DNA from: a virus
Lineage: Duplodnaviria > Caudoviricetes
Length of the DNA stretch: 64,000 bases
IMG/VR virus record: IMGVR_UViG_3300026159_000398
Direction: 5' to 3' (one strand)
The notes under the pieces were generated by a model. It was not told where the DNA came from, searched no databases, and saw nothing but the letters and a program-made list of their open reading frames with translations. The translations under genes and the position numbers were made by a program. This document shows positions 24,403 through 64,000 of this stretch, in pieces; the first letter of the stretch is position 1; the number at the start of each line of letters is the position of its first letter.

Positions 24403-25085
24403 AGTACTATTGATTCCGAAAGATGAACATAAATTCTAGTAGCTGTAATCGCTTGACCAACTTTTGTACTGAATCCAGTTGATGGAGGTGTATCAGAAAT
24501 TGTAGTTCCATTTAAGAACAGAACTGCACCAGGGTCAAATGTCCATGATGGATTTGTAACTTCACCTTCAGCAACTGCGTCTGCATAATTACCAGCAGCA
24601 ACATCTTCAGTAAGAATTCCAGCTATGCGATTGACATGATTAAGGTCGCTTGAATCGGCAGGACCACCCATAATGGTGACAACAGAGAATGCTGATAAAT
24701 CAACGTCACTAATTATTCGTTTAAGAACAGCGGCAGTTGTTAAACTACCAGGGCCAGGAATTCCAGGGTCGCCTTTATCGCCTTTTTCACCTTGAATTCC
24801 TTGTGGACCAGCAGGTCCTTGAGGACCCATAGGTCCCTGAGCGCCAGTGGCGCCAGCTGCTCCTTTTTCTCCACGTAATCCATAAGGACCTTGTGGGCCT
24901 TGTGGACCCGGAGGGCCTTGTGGACCCGGAGGGCCTTGTGGGCCAGCAGGACCAGCTGGACCTTGAAAACCTTGGAGACCGCGTTTGCCTCTATCTCCTT
25001 GATTTCCTTGTTCACCTTGTAATCCCGGATCGCCTTTTACACCACGGTCGCCTTTCGTTCCTTTTAATGTGATTGCGTCGCCCAT
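24399..25085 (-). CDS. Collagen-like fibre protein
   Basis: About 35 uninterrupted Gly-X-Y triplets followed by a globular C-terminal domain. Confidence 0.85.
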
Positions 25086-58000: not shown

Positions 58001-58010
58001 TAATATAATT
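58001..58010 (+). promoter_or_regulatory. TAATATAATT candidate promoter for the structured leader and GIY-YIG gene
   Basis: Exact motif immediately 5' of the RNA structure. Confidence 0.5.
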
Positions 58011-58018
58011 ATAATATC

Positions 58019-58097
58019 AGAAGGACAAAGGGTAGCTCCCTGGCTGGTTGCTCTAATCAACCAGCCTCACTTCTATATTTATAATTATATTAGAGGT
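58019..58097 (+). ncRNA. Structured 5' leader RNA (three-way junction with RBS pseudoknot), copy 1
   Basis: P1 AGAAG/CTTCT, P2 AGGG/CCCT and P3 GGCTGGTTG/CAACCAGCC. The P3 loop CTCTAAT is complementary to ATTAGAG (58089-58095) at the RBS. Confidence 0.7.
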
Positions 58098-58104
58098 AAT
58101 TATC

Positions 58105-58773
58105 ATGTCTTATGGTTATATTTATCTGATCAAAGATCATTTTACTAACAAAGTTTATATTGGCAGACGAAAAGGCCATGAATCAAAATCTTTAAATTAT
58201 TTTGGTTCTGGCAAAATTATACACAACATTCTTCATAAAAGAAAACATCATCTTTCTAAAATTGTTCTTGGTTATTGTGAATCTAAAGAGGAGCTTATCA
58301 ACTTAGAAACACAATGTATTGAATTTTTTAACGCTACCAATAAGTTATATGGGTATAATTTAAAATCGACTGGTAATGATGGAGGAGCAATAAGATTCGG
58401 TCCACATTCTGAACAATCGAAACAAAAAATGCGTAAACCAAAATCTAAACAAGCTAGACGAAATATGAAATTAGCACAAAATAAAAATATTAAATTAAAA
58501 CAATTAAATAGTAAACTACTTTGGTCCACTACAACTTACAGATATCAACAAACAAAAGCTTTACAAAAATCTTGGGATGAACATCCAGAACGAAAAAAAC
58601 AATTTTCTAAAATATTTTCTGGCAAAAATAATCCAGCTAATATCAAAATTGATACACAACAAATATTAAAATTATATAATTCTGGTATTAGTATGAGAAA
58701 ATTATCTAAAATGTTTAATTGCACGCATCCAACAATAAGCAAAAGAATTAAAAATCCAGAAAAATATCTTTAG
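58105..58773 (+). CDS. GIY-YIG homing endonuclease (Seg-like)
   Basis: GYIYLI...VYIGR...YFGSG and YGYNL; paralogous to 44176-44805; C-terminal HTH. Confidence 0.85.
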   Translation: MSYGYIYLIKDHFTNKVYIGRRKGHESKSLNYFGSGKIIHNILHKRKHHLSKIVLGYCESKEELINLETQCIEFFNATNKLYGYNLKSTGNDGGAIRFGPHSEQSKQKMRKPKSKQARRNMKLAQNKNIKLKQLNSKLLWSTTTYRYQQTKALQKSWDEHPERKKQFSKIFSGKNNPANIKIDTQQILKLYNSGISMRKLSKMFNCTHPTISKRIKNPEKYL

Positions 58774-58784
58774 AGCACCACCAT

Positions 58785-58816
58785 AAAAAACCTCTTAATA
58801 TATTTTATTAAGAGGT
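58785..58816 (-). terminator. Intrinsic terminator between convergent genes
   Basis: ACCTCTTAATA-TATTT-TATTAAGAGGT stem with a T-run on the minus strand. Confidence 0.7.
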
Positions 58817-58842
58817 CATGAGTTTTTCTACAATATTTTCGT

Positions 58843-59043
58843 TTATCTAGGCCATTTCTTTGATTGCTCGTAACCAGAGTCATAGCCTTTCTTTGCCATG
58901 ACAGAACCGTACGTGATAATTAAATCTAACAAATCATTTGAATTATTAGGTAATTGTTCGCGAATAGTTCTTAATAATCCATCGGGGTCATTGCTGTCTC
59001 TTTTATCTGCTTCGAGATATTGGCTTAATCGTGATTTACTCAT
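58843..59043 (-). CDS. Small protein with a capsid-targeting-like N-terminus
   Basis: Begins MSKSRLSQYLEA. Confidence 0.6.
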   Translation of the reverse strand: MSKSRLSQYLEADKRDSNDPDGLLRTIREQLPNNSNDLLDLIITYGSVMAKKGYDSGYEQSKKWPR

Positions 59044-59058
59044 TTGTTTTTTCCTTGA

Positions 59059-59424
59059 TTAAAATTTCATAGTAGCTAATTCTAAATCTTTTCTATTTAT
59101 TTTTTCAACTGATTCTTCTTTATCAATATTGGCTTTCAGATAAATATCGTATCCCATTTCATCTCTGAGTGCTAATGCCAATTCTTCTTTTTTTAATCCT
59201 GTTTTTTCCGAGTCGAATAAGTACAAATATTTAGGTTTGCTACCATTATCGGTTGTATAGTTGCCACCCATTTCTTGAATGAATTGATACAATCTTTCAT
59301 CATAAGAAAGACCGCGAGTTTCATAGTCGCCATATTCTATTTTGACAGCAAGGTACTTTCCAGTTATTCCAAAGGTGTCTTTTTTCGACTTTACTTCTTC
59401 AAGATATTTTTGTAATTGACTCAT
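59059..59424 (-). CDS. Small protein with a capsid-targeting-like N-terminus
   Basis: Begins MSQLQKYLEEV. Confidence 0.6.
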   Translation of the reverse strand: MSQLQKYLEEVKSKKDTFGITGKYLAVKIEYGDYETRGLSYDERLYQFIQEMGGNYTTDNGSKPKYLYLFDSEKTGLKKEELALALRDEMGYDIYLKANIDKEESVEKINRKDLELATMKF

Positions 59425-59711
59425 GCGAGCTCCATCATGTATTTTGCTTGAATTTCTGGTGCAAGAAACGGACAGTGTTTATAATCTTCTGCACATTCCC
59501 AACAAAGAAAATCAGGTTCCCAAAAATACCATCTGAATTTTTCAAACTTGAACATCCTTTTTCCGGCGATATCAGCAACTGAAATTTGTTCAAGGTTTTT
59601 AACTAACGCATTGACCAAAGTTTCAGTCTTGAAATGATCGCGCAAAAAGAAAACATCAAGATTTGAATGACTTAAATAACAACGGTTCTTATAAATTATC
59701 ACAGTATTCAT
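59421..59711 (-). CDS. Hypothetical protein
   Basis: 96-aa ORF with CWEC...HC; its stop overlaps the next ATG. Confidence 0.6.
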   Translation of the reverse strand: MNTVIIYKNRCYLSHSNLDVFFLRDHFKTETLVNALVKNLEQISVADIAGKRMFKFEKFRWYFWEPDFLCWECAEDYKHCPFLAPEIQAKYMMELA

Positions 59712-59750
59712 AATTTATCGTACTATTAAATGTTATTTTTGTAAATACTT

Positions 59751-60152
59751 TTATTTCAAATATTGAGTGATATTTCCGGAAAGTATGATCTGTCCGCTTT
59801 GAATATCGAGCTCAATAACGCCATTCGTAAATGGAATTCCTACGCCTTTGTATTTTGCAAGGAAAGTATTCACTGCTTCTGGGGTAATTTTCCATGCTTG
59901 GTTTTCTGGTGATTTTAGAAGACCATCGAAAAGACTTTTCGCGGCTGTATCATTCAAGAAGTTGATTGTCATTGTTTGATCGCCAACTTTAACTTCTTTT
60001 GTTTTGCCTGTTGTGGCACCATCAGCCTTTATAGATGCGACAGCTTTTCCTGCGCTTTTAGAACCTTTGTAAAGCGATATTTGATTTGGGTTTGGCATCG
60101 CCACATCAAATGGTGCTTCACTTAATTGCTTGAGATATTCATGTAGTTGCAT
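59751..60152 (-). CDS. Protein with a capsid-targeting-like N-terminus
   Basis: Begins MQLHEYLKQLSEA. Confidence 0.6.
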   Translation of the reverse strand: MQLHEYLKQLSEAPFDVAMPNPNQISLYKGSKSAGKAVASIKADGATTGKTKEVKVGDQTMTINFLNDTAAKSLFDGLLKSPENQAWKITPEAVNTFLAKYKGVGIPFTNGVIELDIQSGQIILSGNITQYLK

Positions 60153-61675
60153 TATCGTTTTGCTCCTTTATGGCCTTCGCCACTTTGGTATTTTTGCATG
60201 ATTGAAACAGCCGCCCAACGATGCCAAATTTCTACAGGAGAATCTGACATGGCGAATTTAACAACATCAGTAAAAGTACGGAAGTCCATCTTTTCAACAC
60301 GTTTTGATGGAACAACTTTATCTTTTATGAATTTCAAAGCTTCACGCTTATGACTTTCTGAAGCTCCCGTAATTTCAATGTATTTCATGACGCCTTCAAT
60401 ACGTTTGACAATTTCATCTAGACTCAAACTAACTTCAACTGTCATGGCACGAGACTTAATAGCGCCAGGAATTTGGTGTAAGTATTTGTTGCTAATGAAA
60501 ATTACACGACCATCAAAGTTAAATCTATTTGGGAGAATAGCATTTCCTTTTGTTGGTGACGATGCACGAATACGTTGAACTTCCCAAACTTTTTGCGCGT
60601 GTTGACTTGACAACATAGCTTCGATATTGACTTTCTTTTTGAGTAACTCATCAATAACATCTTGTGGGATATCTTCAACTAATTCATATTTAAGAATTGT
60701 TTCATATAATAGTGGGTCAACTGTATTATTGCTTAGATAACTGATTTCAGTTTCTTTTCCGGAGTCAAGAGCGCCTTTAAGCATATTGACGCAGTCTCTA
60801 TCATCAAGAAGACTATCAAGGTCATCAAATACAATAATTTTGTTGGGGTCGTTGTTAACGAAAAGAACCTTATACAATGCAGATGCTGAAGTGATGGCAC
60901 CAGTAAAAAATTGGTGGTTCGTTCCTTTTAGTTCGTTTTTAACTGTGAAGGTTTTTCCAATACCTGGGTCACCTGTAATAAGGATAGATTTGTTAATGCC
61001 ATCTTTTACTTTCTTAATTGCATCTTCCATGAGAGCGAAGATTTCTTTTGAATTAAGAGGTTCATCAAAAAGTTCTGACCATTCATCAGGTTCTTTAGCT
61101 GGAAGTTTTTCAGCTGGCGCTGATGAAACATTGACAGTTTTTCCAGATTTTTGTGCGCGATATTCAGCACTAAGCTGTTTCATTAATGCAGTATCGCCAG
61201 CTTCTTTAGCGCGTTTATAACGAGCAGACAAAGAATTTGGGTCTGCTGTTCTTGCCATTTCAGTAAAGAACTCTTCAGTAATTGGTTCCTCATCGGGAGA
61301 TGTGGTTACTAATTGAACTTTGCCTTTACGACCATTATGAATAACTTCATCAATAAGAGTCACAACTTCAGTGATATTTAAATCACTTGTGTTAGCTGTA
61401 AATTGTGGATTGACTGCTGGAGCGAGCCAGAAGTCTATGCTGTCAATGTGAGCACTTTGATTATTTGTTTTCCAATTGAGACGGAATGCGTGTTTGGCGT
61501 CATCAAGCATGAACATTGTTCCATACACAACACCTTGGCCTTCTTTCTCAATTAACATGGTGCCATGTTGAACATAAACTTTCTCATTAAATTTACGTTC
61601 AATACGACTTTTAAGAATATCTACAACACGGCCAGATTTTTGTTCAGCCACAGCTTCAAAATATTTCTTAAGCAT
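60152..61675 (-). CDS. AAA+ ATPase with an N-terminal extension
   Basis: Walker A GDPGIGKT, Walker B IIVFDDLD, sensor VIFISN and Arg finger AIKSRA. Confidence 0.85.
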   Translation of the reverse strand: MLKKYFEAVAEQKSGRVVDILKSRIERKFNEKVYVQHGTMLIEKEGQGVVYGTMFMLDDAKHAFRLNWKTNNQSAHIDSIDFWLAPAVNPQFTANTSDLNITEVVTLIDEVIHNGRKGKVQLVTTSPDEEPITEEFFTEMARTADPNSLSARYKRAKEAGDTALMKQLSAEYRAQKSGKTVNVSSAPAEKLPAKEPDEWSELFDEPLNSKEIFALMEDAIKKVKDGINKSILITGDPGIGKTFTVKNELKGTNHQFFTGAITSASALYKVLFVNNDPNKIIVFDDLDSLLDDRDCVNMLKGALDSGKETEISYLSNNTVDPLLYETILKYELVEDIPQDVIDELLKKKVNIEAMLSSQHAQKVWEVQRIRASSPTKGNAILPNRFNFDGRVIFISNKYLHQIPGAIKSRAMTVEVSLSLDEIVKRIEGVMKYIEITGASESHKREALKFIKDKVVPSKRVEKMDFRTFTDVVKFAMSDSPVEIWHRWAAVSIMQKYQSGEGHKGAKR

Positions 61676-61689
61676 GATTCTATTTTCTC

Positions 61690-62046
61690 CTATACATCTG
61701 GAGTTGCGACCATTTTGCCTTTGGTCTGAGGATTTTGTACAAAATCCGAAGGAGGAGTTTTATCTGGCGCATATTTGGCGCTGCCATCTCTCTTAAGAAC
61801 TTCAAGAACTCCTTTAGCGATTTCAGGATATTGTTTTGCAAAATCTTGAACAGATACATTTACTGGATTTCCATTAATAGTTCCTTTTATTAAATTACCT
61901 GCTAATTCAAGATCGTATGTTGTTGCAACAGTTCCAGACATTCCTTTTCCTGTTGTAAGTTCTTTGCTAGAACCGATTGGAGTTGGCGAACCACCTTCCA
62001 TTCTTTCAGTATAAACTTTTTCCATGTATGTGTCAAATTTGCTCAT
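61690..62046 (-). CDS. Protein with a capsid-targeting-like N-terminus
   Basis: Begins MSKFDTYMEKV. Confidence 0.6.
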   Translation of the reverse strand: MSKFDTYMEKVYTERMEGGSPTPIGSSKELTTGKGMSGTVATTYDLELAGNLIKGTINGNPVNVSVQDFAKQYPEIAKGVLEVLKRDGSAKYAPDKTPPSDFVQNPQTKGKMVATPDV

Positions 62047-62232
62047 TTACATTGCCTTTTCCATTATATATTTAAACTCTTTAAATGTGATTTTATTCTG
62101 TTTTATCCAACCCCAAATTATTTTTAATTTGGCATCATAATCATCATGAAATTTACGTAACTTCTCGACGTATTGTTCAGCTAATGCTTCAGAAAATTTT
62201 TCACCTTCAAGATATTCTTCTAATCTACTCAT
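62047..62232 (-). CDS. Small protein with a capsid-targeting-like N-terminus
   Basis: Begins MSRLEEYLEG; GGAGG RBS. Confidence 0.6.
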   Translation of the reverse strand: MSRLEEYLEGEKFSEALAEQYVEKLRKFHDDYDAKLKIIWGWIKQNKITFKEFKYIMEKAM

Positions 62233-62522
62233 TGAGGACCTCCATAGATATTTGGGTTTGCAATTGAGACATCGTTGTTTTTCTTTTCTCTTGGAATGTC
62301 TCGAATGCTTGTCGTCTGTTTTTTACTATCGTCTTCTTTACTCGCTCTTGGTGGAATTAAAATCCATTTCATTTTCTCTCCACATTCTGGACAACCGTTT
62401 TTAAATGGTTGCTTTTGAAGTCTTCTGCATTTAGAACACATATACAATGGTTCCGTTGCATCTATTGTATCAGGTGGTTGAATTCCTTGATAGTCATCGA
62501 GATATTGTTCAAATTTTCTCAT
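62229..62522 (-). CDS. Zinc-ribbon protein with a capsid-targeting-like N-terminus
   Basis: Begins MRKFEQYLDD; contains CSKC...CPEC. Confidence 0.6.
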   Translation of the reverse strand: MRKFEQYLDDYQGIQPPDTIDATEPLYMCSKCRRLQKQPFKNGCPECGEKMKWILIPPRASKEDDSKKQTTSIRDIPREKKNNDVSIANPNIYGGPQ

Positions 62523-62628
62523 TACACTCCATCCACAAAATTGGCACTAGGAGAAATTGGTTTACCTGCATCTGGCTTTTGTGGAGCGCTTACCTTTTGA
62601 TCCCAATCTTCTCCTTTCACCGGATTAA

Positions 62629-62904
62629 CTACTTTTTTTTTGTAAGGTTACGGATGATAGAGTCCAATGGTTTGCTGCCCATTGGGCCGGCATTAAACTT
62701 CTCGAGAGTGAGAATGATATCTTTCTGTTCGTCTTCGCCACCCTTCTCATATTTGGCAGTAATTTCGCGTTCCAATTGATGCATACGGTCTCTTTGAATA
62801 ATCATGAGACTGTCGGAATTCAAATAGTTGACATAATCACGAACCATCTCAACTAATTGAGATTCATTAAATATTTGAACGTCTTCCATGAATTTGCTGA
62901 GCAT
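62629..62904 (-). CDS. Hypothetical protein; probably extends to 62522 through a -1 shift in an A9 run
   Basis: Begins MLSKFMED and ends ACA AAA AAA AAG TAG. The -1 frame stays open for 36 more codons. Confidence 0.6.
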   Translation of the reverse strand: MLSKFMEDVQIFNESQLVEMVRDYVNYLNSDSLMIIQRDRMHQLEREITAKYEKGGEDEQKDIILTLEKFNAGPMGSKPLDSIIRNLTKKK

Positions 62905-62918
62905 AATGTCCTCTATAG

Positions 62919-62957
62919 AATTATATTACTATTTTGTGCTTTTTGCTTAATATAATT
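62919..62957. promoter_or_regulatory. Divergent pair of TAATATAATT motifs
   Basis: A minus-strand copy at 62919-62928 precedes the start at 62904; a plus-strand copy at 62948-62957 precedes the start at 62962. Confidence 0.55.
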
Positions 62958-62961
62958 TTAT

Positions 62962-63444
62962 ATGAAACGCAAAAAACAGCATAAAGTTTATGGTCGTAAT
63001 ACCAAAAAACGAACCATCAAAAAGGCTCTCAAATCATATACAAATCAAGAAACTGGTGAACGTAAAGAATCTTCAATTGAACAAAAAGTCCGTTTGTTTC
63101 TCGAGTCTGCTAATATTCCACATCAGCCAGAAAAGTTTATTGAACATGCTTTTTATGACTTTTTGGTTACTGACGGACTTAATTATACATTCCTTATAGA
63201 ATGTGATGGATGGTGGCACGGTCTTGATTCTAATGGTGAGCCGCTTCCATCAAATAAATTATTAAAAATTCATAAAAAGAATCAACGTAATGATAAACGT
63301 AAAGATAAAATTGCTCAAAAACTTGGGATTCCTTTAATACGACTCAAAGAATCCGACATCAAGAATAATTTTCAAGATATCAAAAAAACTATTCAAAATG
63401 AAATAGAGCGACAAATATATTTTAAACAGAGAGGACAGGACTGA
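62962..63444 (+). CDS. DUF559/Vsr-like endonuclease
   Basis: SSIEQKV...YDFLV...LIECDGWWHG...ND.RKD..A...GIPLIRL.ESDI. Confidence 0.75.
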   Translation: MKRKKQHKVYGRNTKKRTIKKALKSYTNQETGERKESSIEQKVRLFLESANIPHQPEKFIEHAFYDFLVTDGLNYTFLIECDGWWHGLDSNGEPLPSNKLLKIHKKNQRNDKRKDKIAQKLGIPLIRLKESDIKNNFQDIKKTIQNEIERQIYFKQRGQD

Positions 63445-63503
63445 TCATCTTGATTCAGTACTCCAACTATTGAATCTTACTCTCTGAAATAATTATGTTG
63501 GAG
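63427..63503 (+). ncRNA. Structured 5' leader RNA (three-way junction with RBS pseudoknot), copy 2
   Basis: P1 CAGAGAG/CTCTCTG, P2 AGGA/TCTT and P3 GATTCAGTA/TATTGAATC. The P3 loop CTCCAAC is complementary to GTTGGAG (63497-63503) at the RBS. Confidence 0.7.
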
Positions 63504-63509
63504 ATAATT

Positions 63510-64000
63510 ATGCCTACTGGATATATTTATCAAATCATTAACACTTCAAATTTCCATTCTTATATTGGTTACACTAATAATTTCATTTCTAGAATGAATC
63601 GCCATTATAATTGTCGTGGCAATTCTTTAATTTATCGTACATTTAGAAAACATGGTGTTGATAATTTTATTGTAAGAATTCTTGAACAACCATTAATTCA
63701 AAATTTACCAGAACGAGAAAAGTATTGGATTAACTTTTTTGATACATACCAAAATGGGTACAATATGACTCCTGGCGGCGATGGTGGTCCGACAACAAGA
63801 GGCAAAAAAAAGAAACCGCATAGTCTTCAAACAAAACAAAAAATGAGTGAAGATCGAAAAGGTAAATTACGCACTAAAGAATCTAAACAAAAACAAAGTG
63901 AAAGCTTAAAGGGTAATAAAAACCCTAGATTTATTTTTCTTTCCGATACACAAATCAATCAAATTATAAATTTTTATGAAAAACAAAAGTTGACTATAAA
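63510..64000 (+). CDS. GIY-YIG homing endonuclease with NUMOD3 (runs off the window edge)
   Basis: Not in the ORF track. My translation reads MPTGYIYQIINTSNFHSYIGYT...FRKHG...EREKYWI...GYNMTPGGDG...HSLQTKQKMS. Confidence 0.85.
   Translation, partial: MPTGYIYQIINTSNFHSYIGYTNNFISRMNRHYNCRGNSLIYRTFRKHGVDNFIVRILEQPLIQNLPEREKYWINFFDTYQNGYNMTPGGDGGPTTRGKKKKPHSLQTKQKMSEDRKGKLRTKESKQKQSESLKGNKNPRFIFLSDTQINQIINFYEKQKLTI

What the first reader, a model, noticed from the sequence alone, without database searches (positions are those of the whole stretch)
58001..63512. Covarying structured RNA occurs twice, each copy pairing with the RBS of a GIY-YIG endonuclease
Seen: copy 1 (58019-58097) reads AGAAG-GACAA-AGGG tagct CCCT-GGCTGGTTG ctctaat CAACCAGCC-TCA-CTTCT ... 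ATTAGAG-gtaattatc-ATG. Copy 2 (63427-63503) reads CAGAGAG-GAC-AGGA ctgatca TCTT-GATTCAGTA ctccaac TATTGAATC-TTA-CTCTCTG ... GTTGGAG-ataatt-ATG. The stem sequences differ but the architecture is the same: P1, a GAC linker, a 4-bp P2, a 9-bp P3 with a 7-nt loop, and a TYA linker. In both, the P3 loop is exactly complementary to the 7 nt covering the Shine-Dalgarno, with compensatory changes (CTCTAAT/ATTAGAG versus CTCCAAC/GTTGGAG). Both P2 loops contain palindromes (AGCT, TGATCA). Only the two plus-strand GIY-YIG genes have this leader; those embedded in the minus-strand operon do not. Known: T4 homing endonucleases are repressed by simple RBS-sequestering hairpins. Inference: this is a more elaborate cis-regulatory RNA, possibly a protein- or ligand-responsive switch, that travels with the mobile nuclease. 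I cannot assign it to a named family.
Basis: partly seen in the sequence, partly recalled or inferred. Interest (0 to 1): 0.82.

Follow-up and report, generated by a model that had tools for sequence, protein, structure and literature searches.

The report
Kissing-loop RNA lock on nuclease genes
A folded RNA leader, repeated in front of the selfish DNA-cutting-enzyme genes of an uncultured T4-like phage, uses one hairpin loop to pair exactly with the ribosome-binding site held in a second hairpin loop. It most likely keeps these risky enzymes at a low level, and this design is not in the RNA family catalogue.

Summary
Confirmed and extended. In addition, the Shine-Dalgarno (SD) sits in the 7-nt loop of a second, AU-rich hairpin, so the contact is a loop-loop "kissing" complex.

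A covariance model finds 8 copies in this 205-kb T4-like phage record and about 16 more in other viral and metagenome contigs. Of 23 copies with 5-7-nt P3 loops, 22 are perfectly complementary to their own SD loop. The 25 parsed copies carry 20 different loop sequences. Non-cognate pairs reach 6 nt in only 4 of 542 comparisons. P3 covaries at 8 of 9 pairs and the kissing helix at 6 of 7. No Rfam 15 family matches.

The leader follows the phage's standard, probably late, promoter. It precedes free-standing nuclease genes of at least three folds. Nuclease genes embedded in operons lack it.

Best reading: a cis-acting translational throttle that hides the SD. This is a new structural variant of the RBS-sequestering leaders of T4 homing endonucleases. 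A ligand switch is not supported. The near-invariant junction core and the often self-complementary P2 loop remain unexplained. No expression data could be obtained.

This scan had already noted the same family on other windows of this genome and in other genomes.

The parts
58001..58010 (+). Promoter motif of copy 1 (phage-wide consensus NAATATAATT). It ends 8 nt before P1, so the transcript should start at or just before P1.
   Evidence: The motif occurs 27 times in the genome, almost always 14-40 nt (about 100 nt with a leader) upstream of starts. It precedes baseplate hub, tail sheath and gp32-like genes.
58019..58074 (+). Three-way junction of copy 1. P1 58019-23/58070-74; J1/2 58024-28; P2 58029-32/58038-41; P3 58042-50/58058-66; J3/1 58067-69.
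   Evidence: RNAalifold recovers P1, P2 and P3.
58051..58057 (+). Anti-SD loop of P3, copy 1 (7 nt).
   Evidence: Exact complement of 58089-58095.
58081..58103 (+). SD hairpin of copy 1. Arms 58081-88 and 58096-103; SD-bearing 7-nt loop 58089-95; start codon 58105-07.
   Evidence: In other copies the arm changes are G.U-compatible or compensated.
58105..58773 (+). GIY-YIG homing endonuclease gene with a C-terminal HTH (222 aa).
   Evidence: PHROG 314 homing endonuclease, E = 1.2e-19; own GIY-YIG HMM, E = 4e-46.
62948..63444 (+). Promoter motif (62948-56) and a 160-aa DUF2726/DUF559-like nuclease ORF (62962-63444). The ORF's 3' end runs through the P1 and P2 5' strands of copy 2. Its stop codon, 63442-44, lies in the P2 loop.
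63427..63486 (+). Three-way junction of copy 2. P1 63427-33/63480-86; J1/2 63434-36; P2 63437-40/63448-51; P3 63452-60/63468-76; J3/1 63477-79.
63461..63467 (+). Anti-SD loop of P3, copy 2 (7 nt).
   Evidence: Exact complement of 63497-63503.
63489..63511 (+). SD hairpin of copy 2. Arms 63489-96 and 63504-11; SD loop 63497-503. The start codon 63510-12 overlaps the 3' arm.
   Evidence: (hairpin present in the MFE fold).
63510..64000 (+). GIY-YIG/NUMOD3 homing endonuclease gene. It is 194 aa in the genome and runs off the window end.
   Evidence: Pfam GIY-YIG 1.3e-8 and NUMOD3 5.4e-7; PHROG 314, E = 4e-35; full length.

Best explanation
The element is the 5' untranslated leader of a self-contained expression cassette: promoter, leader, then nuclease gene. 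Free-standing homing-endonuclease-type genes in a lineage of large T4-like phages use it.

Transcription from the phage's standard (probably late) promoter starts at P1. The RNA folds into a three-way junction. Its long arm, P3, presents a 6-7-nt loop that mimics the 16S anti-SD. The gene's own SD is presented in the equally sized loop of a weak AU hairpin that ends at the start codon. The two loops form a fully paired intramolecular kissing complex, stacked between the P3 stem and the SD-hairpin stem. This hides the SD from the 30S subunit, so little nuclease is made from each transcript.

Shown here: the structure, its covariation, the exact cognate loop pairing, the gene association and the promoter motif.

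Inferred: that the pairing represses translation, that P1 at the 5' end stabilises the mRNA, and the promoter's timing.

In copy 2 the upstream ORF ends inside P2. Ribosomes finishing that ORF should melt P1 and P2, and probably P3. This would couple translation of the GIY-YIG gene to that of the upstream nuclease (inference).
For: Structure and pairing:
- Sequence and folds of both copies.
- 8 copies in the genome, E from 6.7e-20 to 4.4e-6, with the next hit at E = 3.1.
- 16 more copies in other contigs.
- On 21 copies, P3 has double changes at 8 of 9 pairs and the kissing helix at 6 of 7. 96.7% of cells pair. 0 of 500 shuffles reach this, and slid controls give 35-49%.
- The kissing helix was not part of the model that made the alignment, so it is an independent test.
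- 22 of 23 short loops are fully complementary to their cognate SD loop. Non-cognate pairs mostly reach 3-4 nt.
- When the P3 loop is 6 nt, the SD loop is also 6 nt (cF, L095, L135).

RNA-level evidence:
- Changes in the SD-hairpin arms are A-to-G opposite U (L099, L018, L094, L093), a C-G closing pair (L086), or a wholly different 5-bp stem (L135).
- G.U pairs fit only the sense strand.

Anti-SD mimicry: P3 loops contain CCUC, CUCC or UCACCU, like the 16S 3' end.

Gene association:
- The leader precedes nucleases of three or more folds.
- It is present only on genes with 108-193-nt upstream gaps. Genes embedded with -4 to +10-nt gaps lack it.

Precedent: RBS sequestration is the documented control of the T4 I-TevI, I-TevII, I-TevIII and segB genes and the Aeh1 mobE gene (PMC2988022).
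Against: - No transcript, structure-probing or translation data exist.
- A plain anti-SD hairpin would do the same job, and this phage uses such hairpins elsewhere. A simple throttle therefore does not explain the conserved junction core (P1 sequence, J1/2, J3/1), P2, or its recurrent loop types.
- The SD-hairpin arms are almost invariant, so they might instead be a DNA signal. The 5' arm contains a TATAAT hexamer.
- If that is an active promoter, short transcripts would escape the lock.
- Nearest-neighbour energies of the isolated loop duplexes are modest, -5 to -9 kcal/mol.
Confidence: 0.6

Rival explanations
1. Two-promoter temporal switch, the T4 I-TevI logic. Long transcripts that carry the junction are locked. 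A second promoter, formed by the TATAAT-containing 5' arm of the SD hairpin, makes a short transcript starting in the SD loop. That transcript lacks the lock and is translated. This reading adds to the cis lock rather than excluding it.
For: - From the 5' arm's TATAAT to the start codon is 25 nt. The phage's ordinary promoter-to-gene units span 20-40 nt.
- In the divergent member L135, a consensus copy of the promoter motif lies between the junction and the SD hairpin.
- L176 has a repeat of its upstream promoter-like word over the SD.
- Other genes of this phage place the promoter in the loop of a plain SD-sequestering hairpin (g4145, g6145, g18998).
- T4 precedent: PMC2988022.
Against: - In all kissing-type copies the proximal element lacks the AA that precedes TATAAT in 19 of the 24 promoter-like sites near other genes' starts.
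- Outside the leaders, the extended proximal word occurs only about as often as chance predicts (9 copies genome-wide against 3.5 expected, about 6 of them in leaders).
- cG and L086 have lost the hexamer's A2 yet keep the hairpin.
- L173 and L137 show no proximal promoter-like word.
- G.U-compatible arm changes show the 5' arm is used as RNA.
Confidence: 0.2
2. Factor-responsive switch. A phage or host protein, or less likely a small ligand, binds the conserved junction core or P2 and opens or tightens the kissing complex. All nuclease genes would then be released together at a set time.
For: The P1 sequence, J1/2 (GACAR) and J3/1 (UNA) stay nearly constant across divergent phages, while P2, P3, both loops and even the SD hairpin change. 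P2 loops fall into a few recurrent types whose stems covary: UAGCU in 13 copies and GGCA in 5.
Against: - The junction strands are too short for the known three-way-junction aptamers (own knowledge).
- There is no conserved alternative fold.
- P2 loop types are interchangeable.
- No candidate protein was identified.
- The leaders serve unrelated proteins, so autoregulation by each nuclease is unlikely.
Confidence: 0.1
3. RNA-RNA association in trans. Self-complementary P2 loops let two leaders pair. Alternatively, the junction is released as a small RNA that acts on the SD of separate transcripts, with each copy addressed by its private loop sequence.
For: - P2 loops include the self-complementary words AGCU, GGCC, UGAUCA, UUGCAA and GGUACC.
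- Cognate loop pairs are the most stable in 7 of 8 rows of the within-genome cross matrix.
- U-rich tracts follow P1 in several copies, and L159 has U7 directly after P1 with no gene behind it.
Against: - The second commonest P2 loop, GGCA, and several others are not self-complementary.
- 4-nt loops cannot kiss (own knowledge).
- Short perfect DNA palindromes fold into hairpins with self-complementary tips by construction.
- The U tracts are not adjacent to a terminator-like hairpin.
- The SD hairpin, which needs the long transcript, is conserved at the RNA level.
Confidence: 0.07
4. A purely DNA-level repeat: a recombination or shuffling cassette like PeSLs, or a protein-binding palindrome array, with no role for the RNA fold.
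For: Nearly identical leaders precede unrelated genes. Leaders c1 and cB are 87% identical but precede GIY-YIG and PD-(D/E)XK genes respectively, which suggests exchange at the leader. The palindromic 8-mer occurs three times per cassette.
Against: Compensatory changes at 8 of 9 P3 pairs and 6 of 7 loop-loop pairs, G.U-specific substitutions, and matched changes of loop length have no DNA-level explanation. A shuffling role can coexist with the RNA function.
Confidence: 0.03

Closest known systems
RBS-sequestering leader hairpins of T-even homing endonuclease genes (I-TevI, I-TevII, I-TevIII, segB; mobE of phage Aeh1), reviewed in PMC2988022
   Same: Both sit in the leader of a phage homing endonuclease gene. 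Both hide the SD by RNA pairing and are linked to late-type promoters. The purpose in both is to restrict synthesis of the nuclease.
   Different: In T4 the SD is one strand of a simple local hairpin, and the late promoter inside it makes an unlocked transcript. Here the SD is in a hairpin loop and is bound by the loop of a distant arm of a three-way junction. The cassette's own promoter lies upstream of the lock. No sequence similarity exists.
Antisense kissing complexes of plasmid copy control (ColE1 RNA I/RNA II, R1 CopA/CopT) and the TAR-TAR* model complex (own knowledge)
   Same: Two hairpins with fully complementary 6-7-nt loops, all loop bases paired, with the stems stacking on the loop-loop helix.
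   Different: Those complexes form between two molecules transcribed from opposite strands. This one is intramolecular, on one strand, and targets an SD.
Loop-loop repression of SD regions by Staphylococcus aureus RNAIII, followed by RNase III cleavage (own knowledge; reviews)
   Same: A C-rich hairpin loop pairs with an SD region presented in a hairpin, blocking initiation.
   Different: That system uses a trans-acting sRNA with many targets and is host-encoded. RNase III involvement is untested here.
PeSL promoter/stem-loop cassettes of T4-type phages (PMC2839356, PMC4122927)
   Same: Both are repeated regulatory cassettes of about 100 nt containing a promoter. Both sit at boundaries of variable genes in T4-like genomes and are apparently exchanged between unrelated genes.
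   Different: PeSLs are early-promoter plus terminator-like stem-loop units defined at the DNA level. They have no three-way junction, no SD pairing and no covariation evidence of this kind.
SD-sequestering pseudoknot riboswitches (preQ1-II/III, SAM-II; own knowledge) and the int-alpA motif RF02996 named in an earlier scan note
   Same: A tertiary pairing of a loop with the SD region. int-alpA is an orphan structured RNA of mobile elements.
   Different: There is no conserved ligand pocket here. No Rfam model, RF02996 included, scores at E <= 10 on the two window copies, or at E <= 1 on eight loci that each hold one of the other copies.

Membership tests
T4-type RBS-sequestering hairpin with embedded late promoter | The SD forms one strand of a stable local hairpin stem. 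| tested here: not met
   The SD lies in the loop of an AU hairpin and pairs with the P3 loop 30-45 nt upstream.
T4-type RBS-sequestering hairpin with embedded late promoter | A promoter lies between anti-SD and SD, so that its transcript lacks the inhibitory strand. | tested here: inconclusive
   A TATAAT-containing 5' arm sits at the right distance, but it lacks the AA of the phage consensus. A consensus copy is present only in L135.
T4-type RBS-sequestering hairpin with embedded late promoter | It precedes a homing endonuclease gene of a T4-like phage. | tested here: met
   Gp23-type capsid gene in the genome. Nuclease annotations.
Any Rfam 15 family (including hammerhead, twister-sister, pistol, hatchet, group I intron, tRNA, int-alpA RF02996) | A score at or near the family's gathering threshold. 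| tested here: not met
   No hit at gathering on the whole window. Nothing above 19 bits at E <= 10 on either copy. Nothing at the leader positions of eight other loci. ARAGORN finds no tRNA in the window.
PeSL cassettes | A repeated unit of early promoter plus terminator-like stem-loop that flanks variable ORFs. | tested here: inconclusive
   The unit is repeated, carries a promoter and sits at variable genes. However, the promoter motif precedes tail sheath and baseplate genes, so it is late-type, and there is no terminator-like stem.
Riboswitch | A conserved ligand-binding core, with an alternative expression-platform fold. | not testable with these tools
   Only the short junction strands are conserved, and no conserved alternative pairing was seen. 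Ligand binding needs experiment.
Fully complementary kissing-loop complex | Two hairpin loops of equal size (6-7 nt), complementary over their whole length, with complementarity ending at the stems. | tested here: met
   22 of 23 copies meet this. Loop sizes change together. The flanking bases are not complementary in c1 and c2. Physical formation is untested.

The most novel reading that the evidence does not exclude
The conserved junction core is the docking site of a shared phage or host factor, or a dimerisation module acting through P2. That factor opens all the locks at a set moment. The private loop-SD pairs keep up to eight nuclease messages in one cell insulated from each other. This would be a natural set of orthogonal, addressable translational locks under one master key.
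Probability: 0.15. Interest if true: 0.8.

Novelty: new variant of a known kind. Interest (0 to 1): 0.62.

Why it matters
Homing endonucleases are the commonest selfish genes of large phages, and this genome carries at least 22. How a phage tolerates so many DNA cutters is only understood for T4's simple hairpins.

This leader shows a second, more elaborate solution. It is conserved across uncultured T4-like phages, and its covariation is strong enough to define a new RNA family.

It is also a rare natural case of an intramolecular, fully paired kissing complex used to gate translation, with about twenty naturally occurring, mutually distinct loop pairs. That is ready-made material for studying kissing-loop specificity and for orthogonal riboregulator design.

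Tried and rejected
- **tRNA-like reading.** P1, P2 and P3 could be read as acceptor, D and anticodon arms, with the 7-nt loop as an anticodon loop. Rejected: ARAGORN finds nothing, the second loop base is C in many copies, and P3 is 9 bp.
- **Ribozyme or group I intron fragment.** No Rfam hit.
No match.
- **Known phage DNA.** blastn against 50,697 phage records found nothing.
- **Leader travelling with the GIY-YIG protein family.** None of 60 viral loci encoding relatives has it, including the two closest at 52% and 49% identity. It is therefore lineage-specific, not family-specific.
- **Pattern scan for the SD hairpin alone.** Only AT-rich chance matches without a junction.
- **Genome-contig scan.** Nine pattern hits, none confirmed by the model. 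No host clue resulted.
- **SD-hairpin 3' arm as the phage's ordinary SD-to-AUG spacer.** Rejected: the 7-mer occurs before 11 of 280 genes, and 8 of those are leaders.
- **T4 late consensus TATAAATA as this phage's promoter.** Not enriched near starts: 1 of 30 occurrences.
- **First metagenome scan.** It failed once and succeeded on repeat.
It was redone from the stored loci.

Full report
**1. Observation**

Copy 1 has these parts:
- P1 at 58019-58023 with 58070-58074
- a GACAA linker
- a 4-bp P2 (58029-32 with 58038-41) with loop UAGCU
- a 9-bp P3 (58042-50 with 58058-66) with a 7-nt loop (58051-57)
- a UCA linker

Copy 2 has the same plan at 63427-63486, with different stem sequences. In both, the P3 loop is the exact reverse complement of the seven bases that cover the SD (58089-95 and 63497-503).

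RNAfold recovers the three-way junction in both. Copy 1 folds much better than shuffles (z about -3.6). Copy 2 does so only mildly (z about -1.5). Between the two copies alone, P1 has three compensatory pairs, P3 five and the loop-SD helix two (and my column count).

**2.

The SD 7-mer is the loop of a second hairpin. An 8-nt AU-rich palindromic word occurs on both sides of it (58081-88 and 58096-103; 63489-96 and 63504-11), and the start codon follows or overlaps the 3' arm. The contact is therefore a loop-loop (kissing) complex between two 7-nt loops. Complementarity stops exactly at the stems.

**3. More copies**

- A blastn of copy 1 against the window's own record, a 205,232-bp IMG/VR virus, found further copies.
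- A covariance model built from six copies (R1) finds eight in the genome, at E from 6.7e-20 to 4.4e-6. The next hit is at E = 3.1.
- Pattern scans followed by the model added copies from other sources:
  - two viral contigs
  - ten distinct metagenome contigs
  - divergent members in three further large viral contigs: L135 and L137, L173, and L150

**4. Covariation**

On the 21-copy alignment (A6):
- 96.7% of cells are standard pairs, against 76% in column shuffles and 35-49% when partners are slid.
- P3 has double changes at 8 of 9 pairs and the kissing helix at 6 of 7.
- 0 of 500 shuffles reach the observed values.

The kissing helix was not in the model that produced the alignment, so it is an independent test. 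RNAalifold on its own recovers P1, P2, P3 and the SD hairpin.

I also parsed 25 copies directly from the stored loci. Of 23 copies with 5-7-nt P3 loops, 22 are fully complementary to their own SD region, and there are 20 different loop sequences. The one exception, L176, is a doubtful member. Non-cognate loop/SD combinations peak at 3-4 nt and reach 6 nt in 4 of 542 cases.

Three kissing-type copies have a 6-nt P3 loop, and their SD loops are also 6 nt. In the divergent members the P3 loop is longer and the complement grows: about 11 nt in L173 (counted by eye) and 14 nt in L137.

**5. RNA or DNA?**

The SD-hairpin arms hardly vary, which alone would allow a DNA-level reading. The changes that do occur point to RNA:
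- A-to-G opposite U in L099 (three), L018, L094 and L093
- a C-G closing pair in L086
- a completely different 5-bp stem around a 6-nt SD loop in L135

G.U pairs also occur in P2, P3 and the kissing helix. This fits RNA of the sense strand only.

**6. Context**

- The genome encodes a T4 Gp23-type capsid protein, 27 tRNAs and a tmRNA.
- It carries 15 GIY-YIG genes and 6 NUMOD3/PD-(D/E)XK endonuclease genes, plus the DUF2726/DUF559-like ORF upstream of copy 2.
- Seven GIY-YIG genes and one PD-(D/E)XK gene have the leader. These are the genes with 108-193-nt upstream gaps, and most are antisense to their neighbours.
- The leaderless genes mostly sit inside operons with gaps of -4 to +10 nt.
- In other contigs the leader precedes GIY-YIG, zinc-finger/TnsA-like, endonuclease-VII-like and small zinc-finger genes.
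- Sixty viral loci encoding relatives of these GIY-YIG proteins lack the leader. It belongs to a phage lineage, not to a protein family.

**7. Promoter**

Seven of the eight genomic copies are preceded by the word NAATATAATT, which ends 7-10 nt before P1. Copy 2 lacks it. The word occurs 27 times in the genome, almost always just upstream of starts. It precedes baseplate-hub, tail-sheath and gp32-like genes. L173 has the T4 late consensus in the same place. The leader is therefore probably the 5' end of a late-type transcript, with P1 at its very 5' end.

Copy 2 has no promoter of its own. It is reached from the promoter of the upstream nuclease ORF, and that ORF's stop codon lies in the P2 loop.

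**8. Mechanism**

The best-supported reading is a cis-acting lock on the SD.
- The P3 loops resemble the 16S anti-SD (CCUC, CUCC, UCACCU).
- The cognate pair is the most stable combination in 7 of the 8 rows of the within-genome cross matrix; copy 1's loop ties with copy 2's SD.
- Stacking P3 (9 bp), the kissing helix (7 bp) and the SD stem (8 bp) would give a quasi-continuous helix.

That this represses translation is inferred from the geometry and from the documented T4 precedent (PMC2988022).

A second promoter in the 5' arm, which would give unlocked short transcripts, is possible:
- For: the spacing to the start codon matches ordinary genes. L135 has a consensus promoter there. This phage also uses plain hairpins with the promoter in the loop.
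- Against: the proximal word consistently lacks the consensus AA. It is damaged in cG and L086, and it is absent in L173 and L137.

I found no support for a ligand switch.

Two features stay unexplained:
- the near-invariant junction core across otherwise divergent members
- the few recurrent P2 loop types, several of which are self-complementary

**9. Comparison and novelty**

The logic is that of the T-even endonuclease leaders. The architecture is not: it combines a three-way junction, an SD displayed in a loop, a full kissing complex and an upstream promoter. No Rfam 15 family matches, and full-text searches found no description. I class it as a new variant of a known kind.

Earlier notes of this scan describe the same family on other windows of this genome and in other genomes. 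My results were derived independently and agree with them.

**10. Limits**

- I could get no expression or probing data.
- E-values from R1 are rough.
- The copies are related by descent, so cell counts overstate the number of independent events. The 20 distinct loop pairs and the cross-pair control do not depend on that.

Noticed in passing
genome positions 4145, 6145 and 18998 (outside the window; L006): Plain inverted repeats whose loop holds the promoter motif and whose 3' arm holds the SD of the next gene. One of these genes is a leaderless-cassette GIY-YIG. This is the classic T4 I-TevI arrangement, used side by side with the kissing-loop leader.
   Followed up: partly
window 62948-62964; also genome 44469, 169260, 192725: The promoter motif starts only 12-14 nt before the start codon. 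These genes would be made from leaderless or near-leaderless mRNAs.
   Followed up: no
window 58084-58092, minus strand; also cD, L017, L089, L091, L094: When the SD loop begins AUU, the reverse strand of the SD hairpin reads the consensus promoter word. That could fire antisense across the junction. This holds for 6 of 21 copies.
   Followed up: no
L009:5386-5922 (genome 64483-65022, minus): A leader-bearing GIY-YIG gene lies antisense immediately downstream of the gp23-type capsid gene. This is the position and orientation of segD in T4.
   Followed up: partly
L007:4740-5110 (genome about 24441-24810): About 370 nt without an ORF between a consensus promoter and a terminator-like hairpin, so a candidate non-coding RNA. 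It begins with a word resembling P1/J1/2 but is not hit by the model.
   Followed up: no
L006 and L007 (genome 4600-19000 and 27607-27953): 27 tRNA genes, including one with anticodon CUA, and a tmRNA. Two leader copies (cC, cB) sit inside the tRNA cluster.
   Followed up: no
L159:4449-4545 and L138:1501-1585: Junction-like elements with the conserved core but no complementary SD and no gene behind them. One has U7 right after P1. They may be orphan or stand-alone forms, and their model scores are weak (E = 0.06-0.24).
   Followed up: partly
whole genome: At least 22 homing-endonuclease-type genes in 205 kb: 15 GIY-YIG, 6 NUMOD3/PD-(D/E)XK and 1 DUF2726-like. This is an unusually heavy load.
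   Followed up: partly
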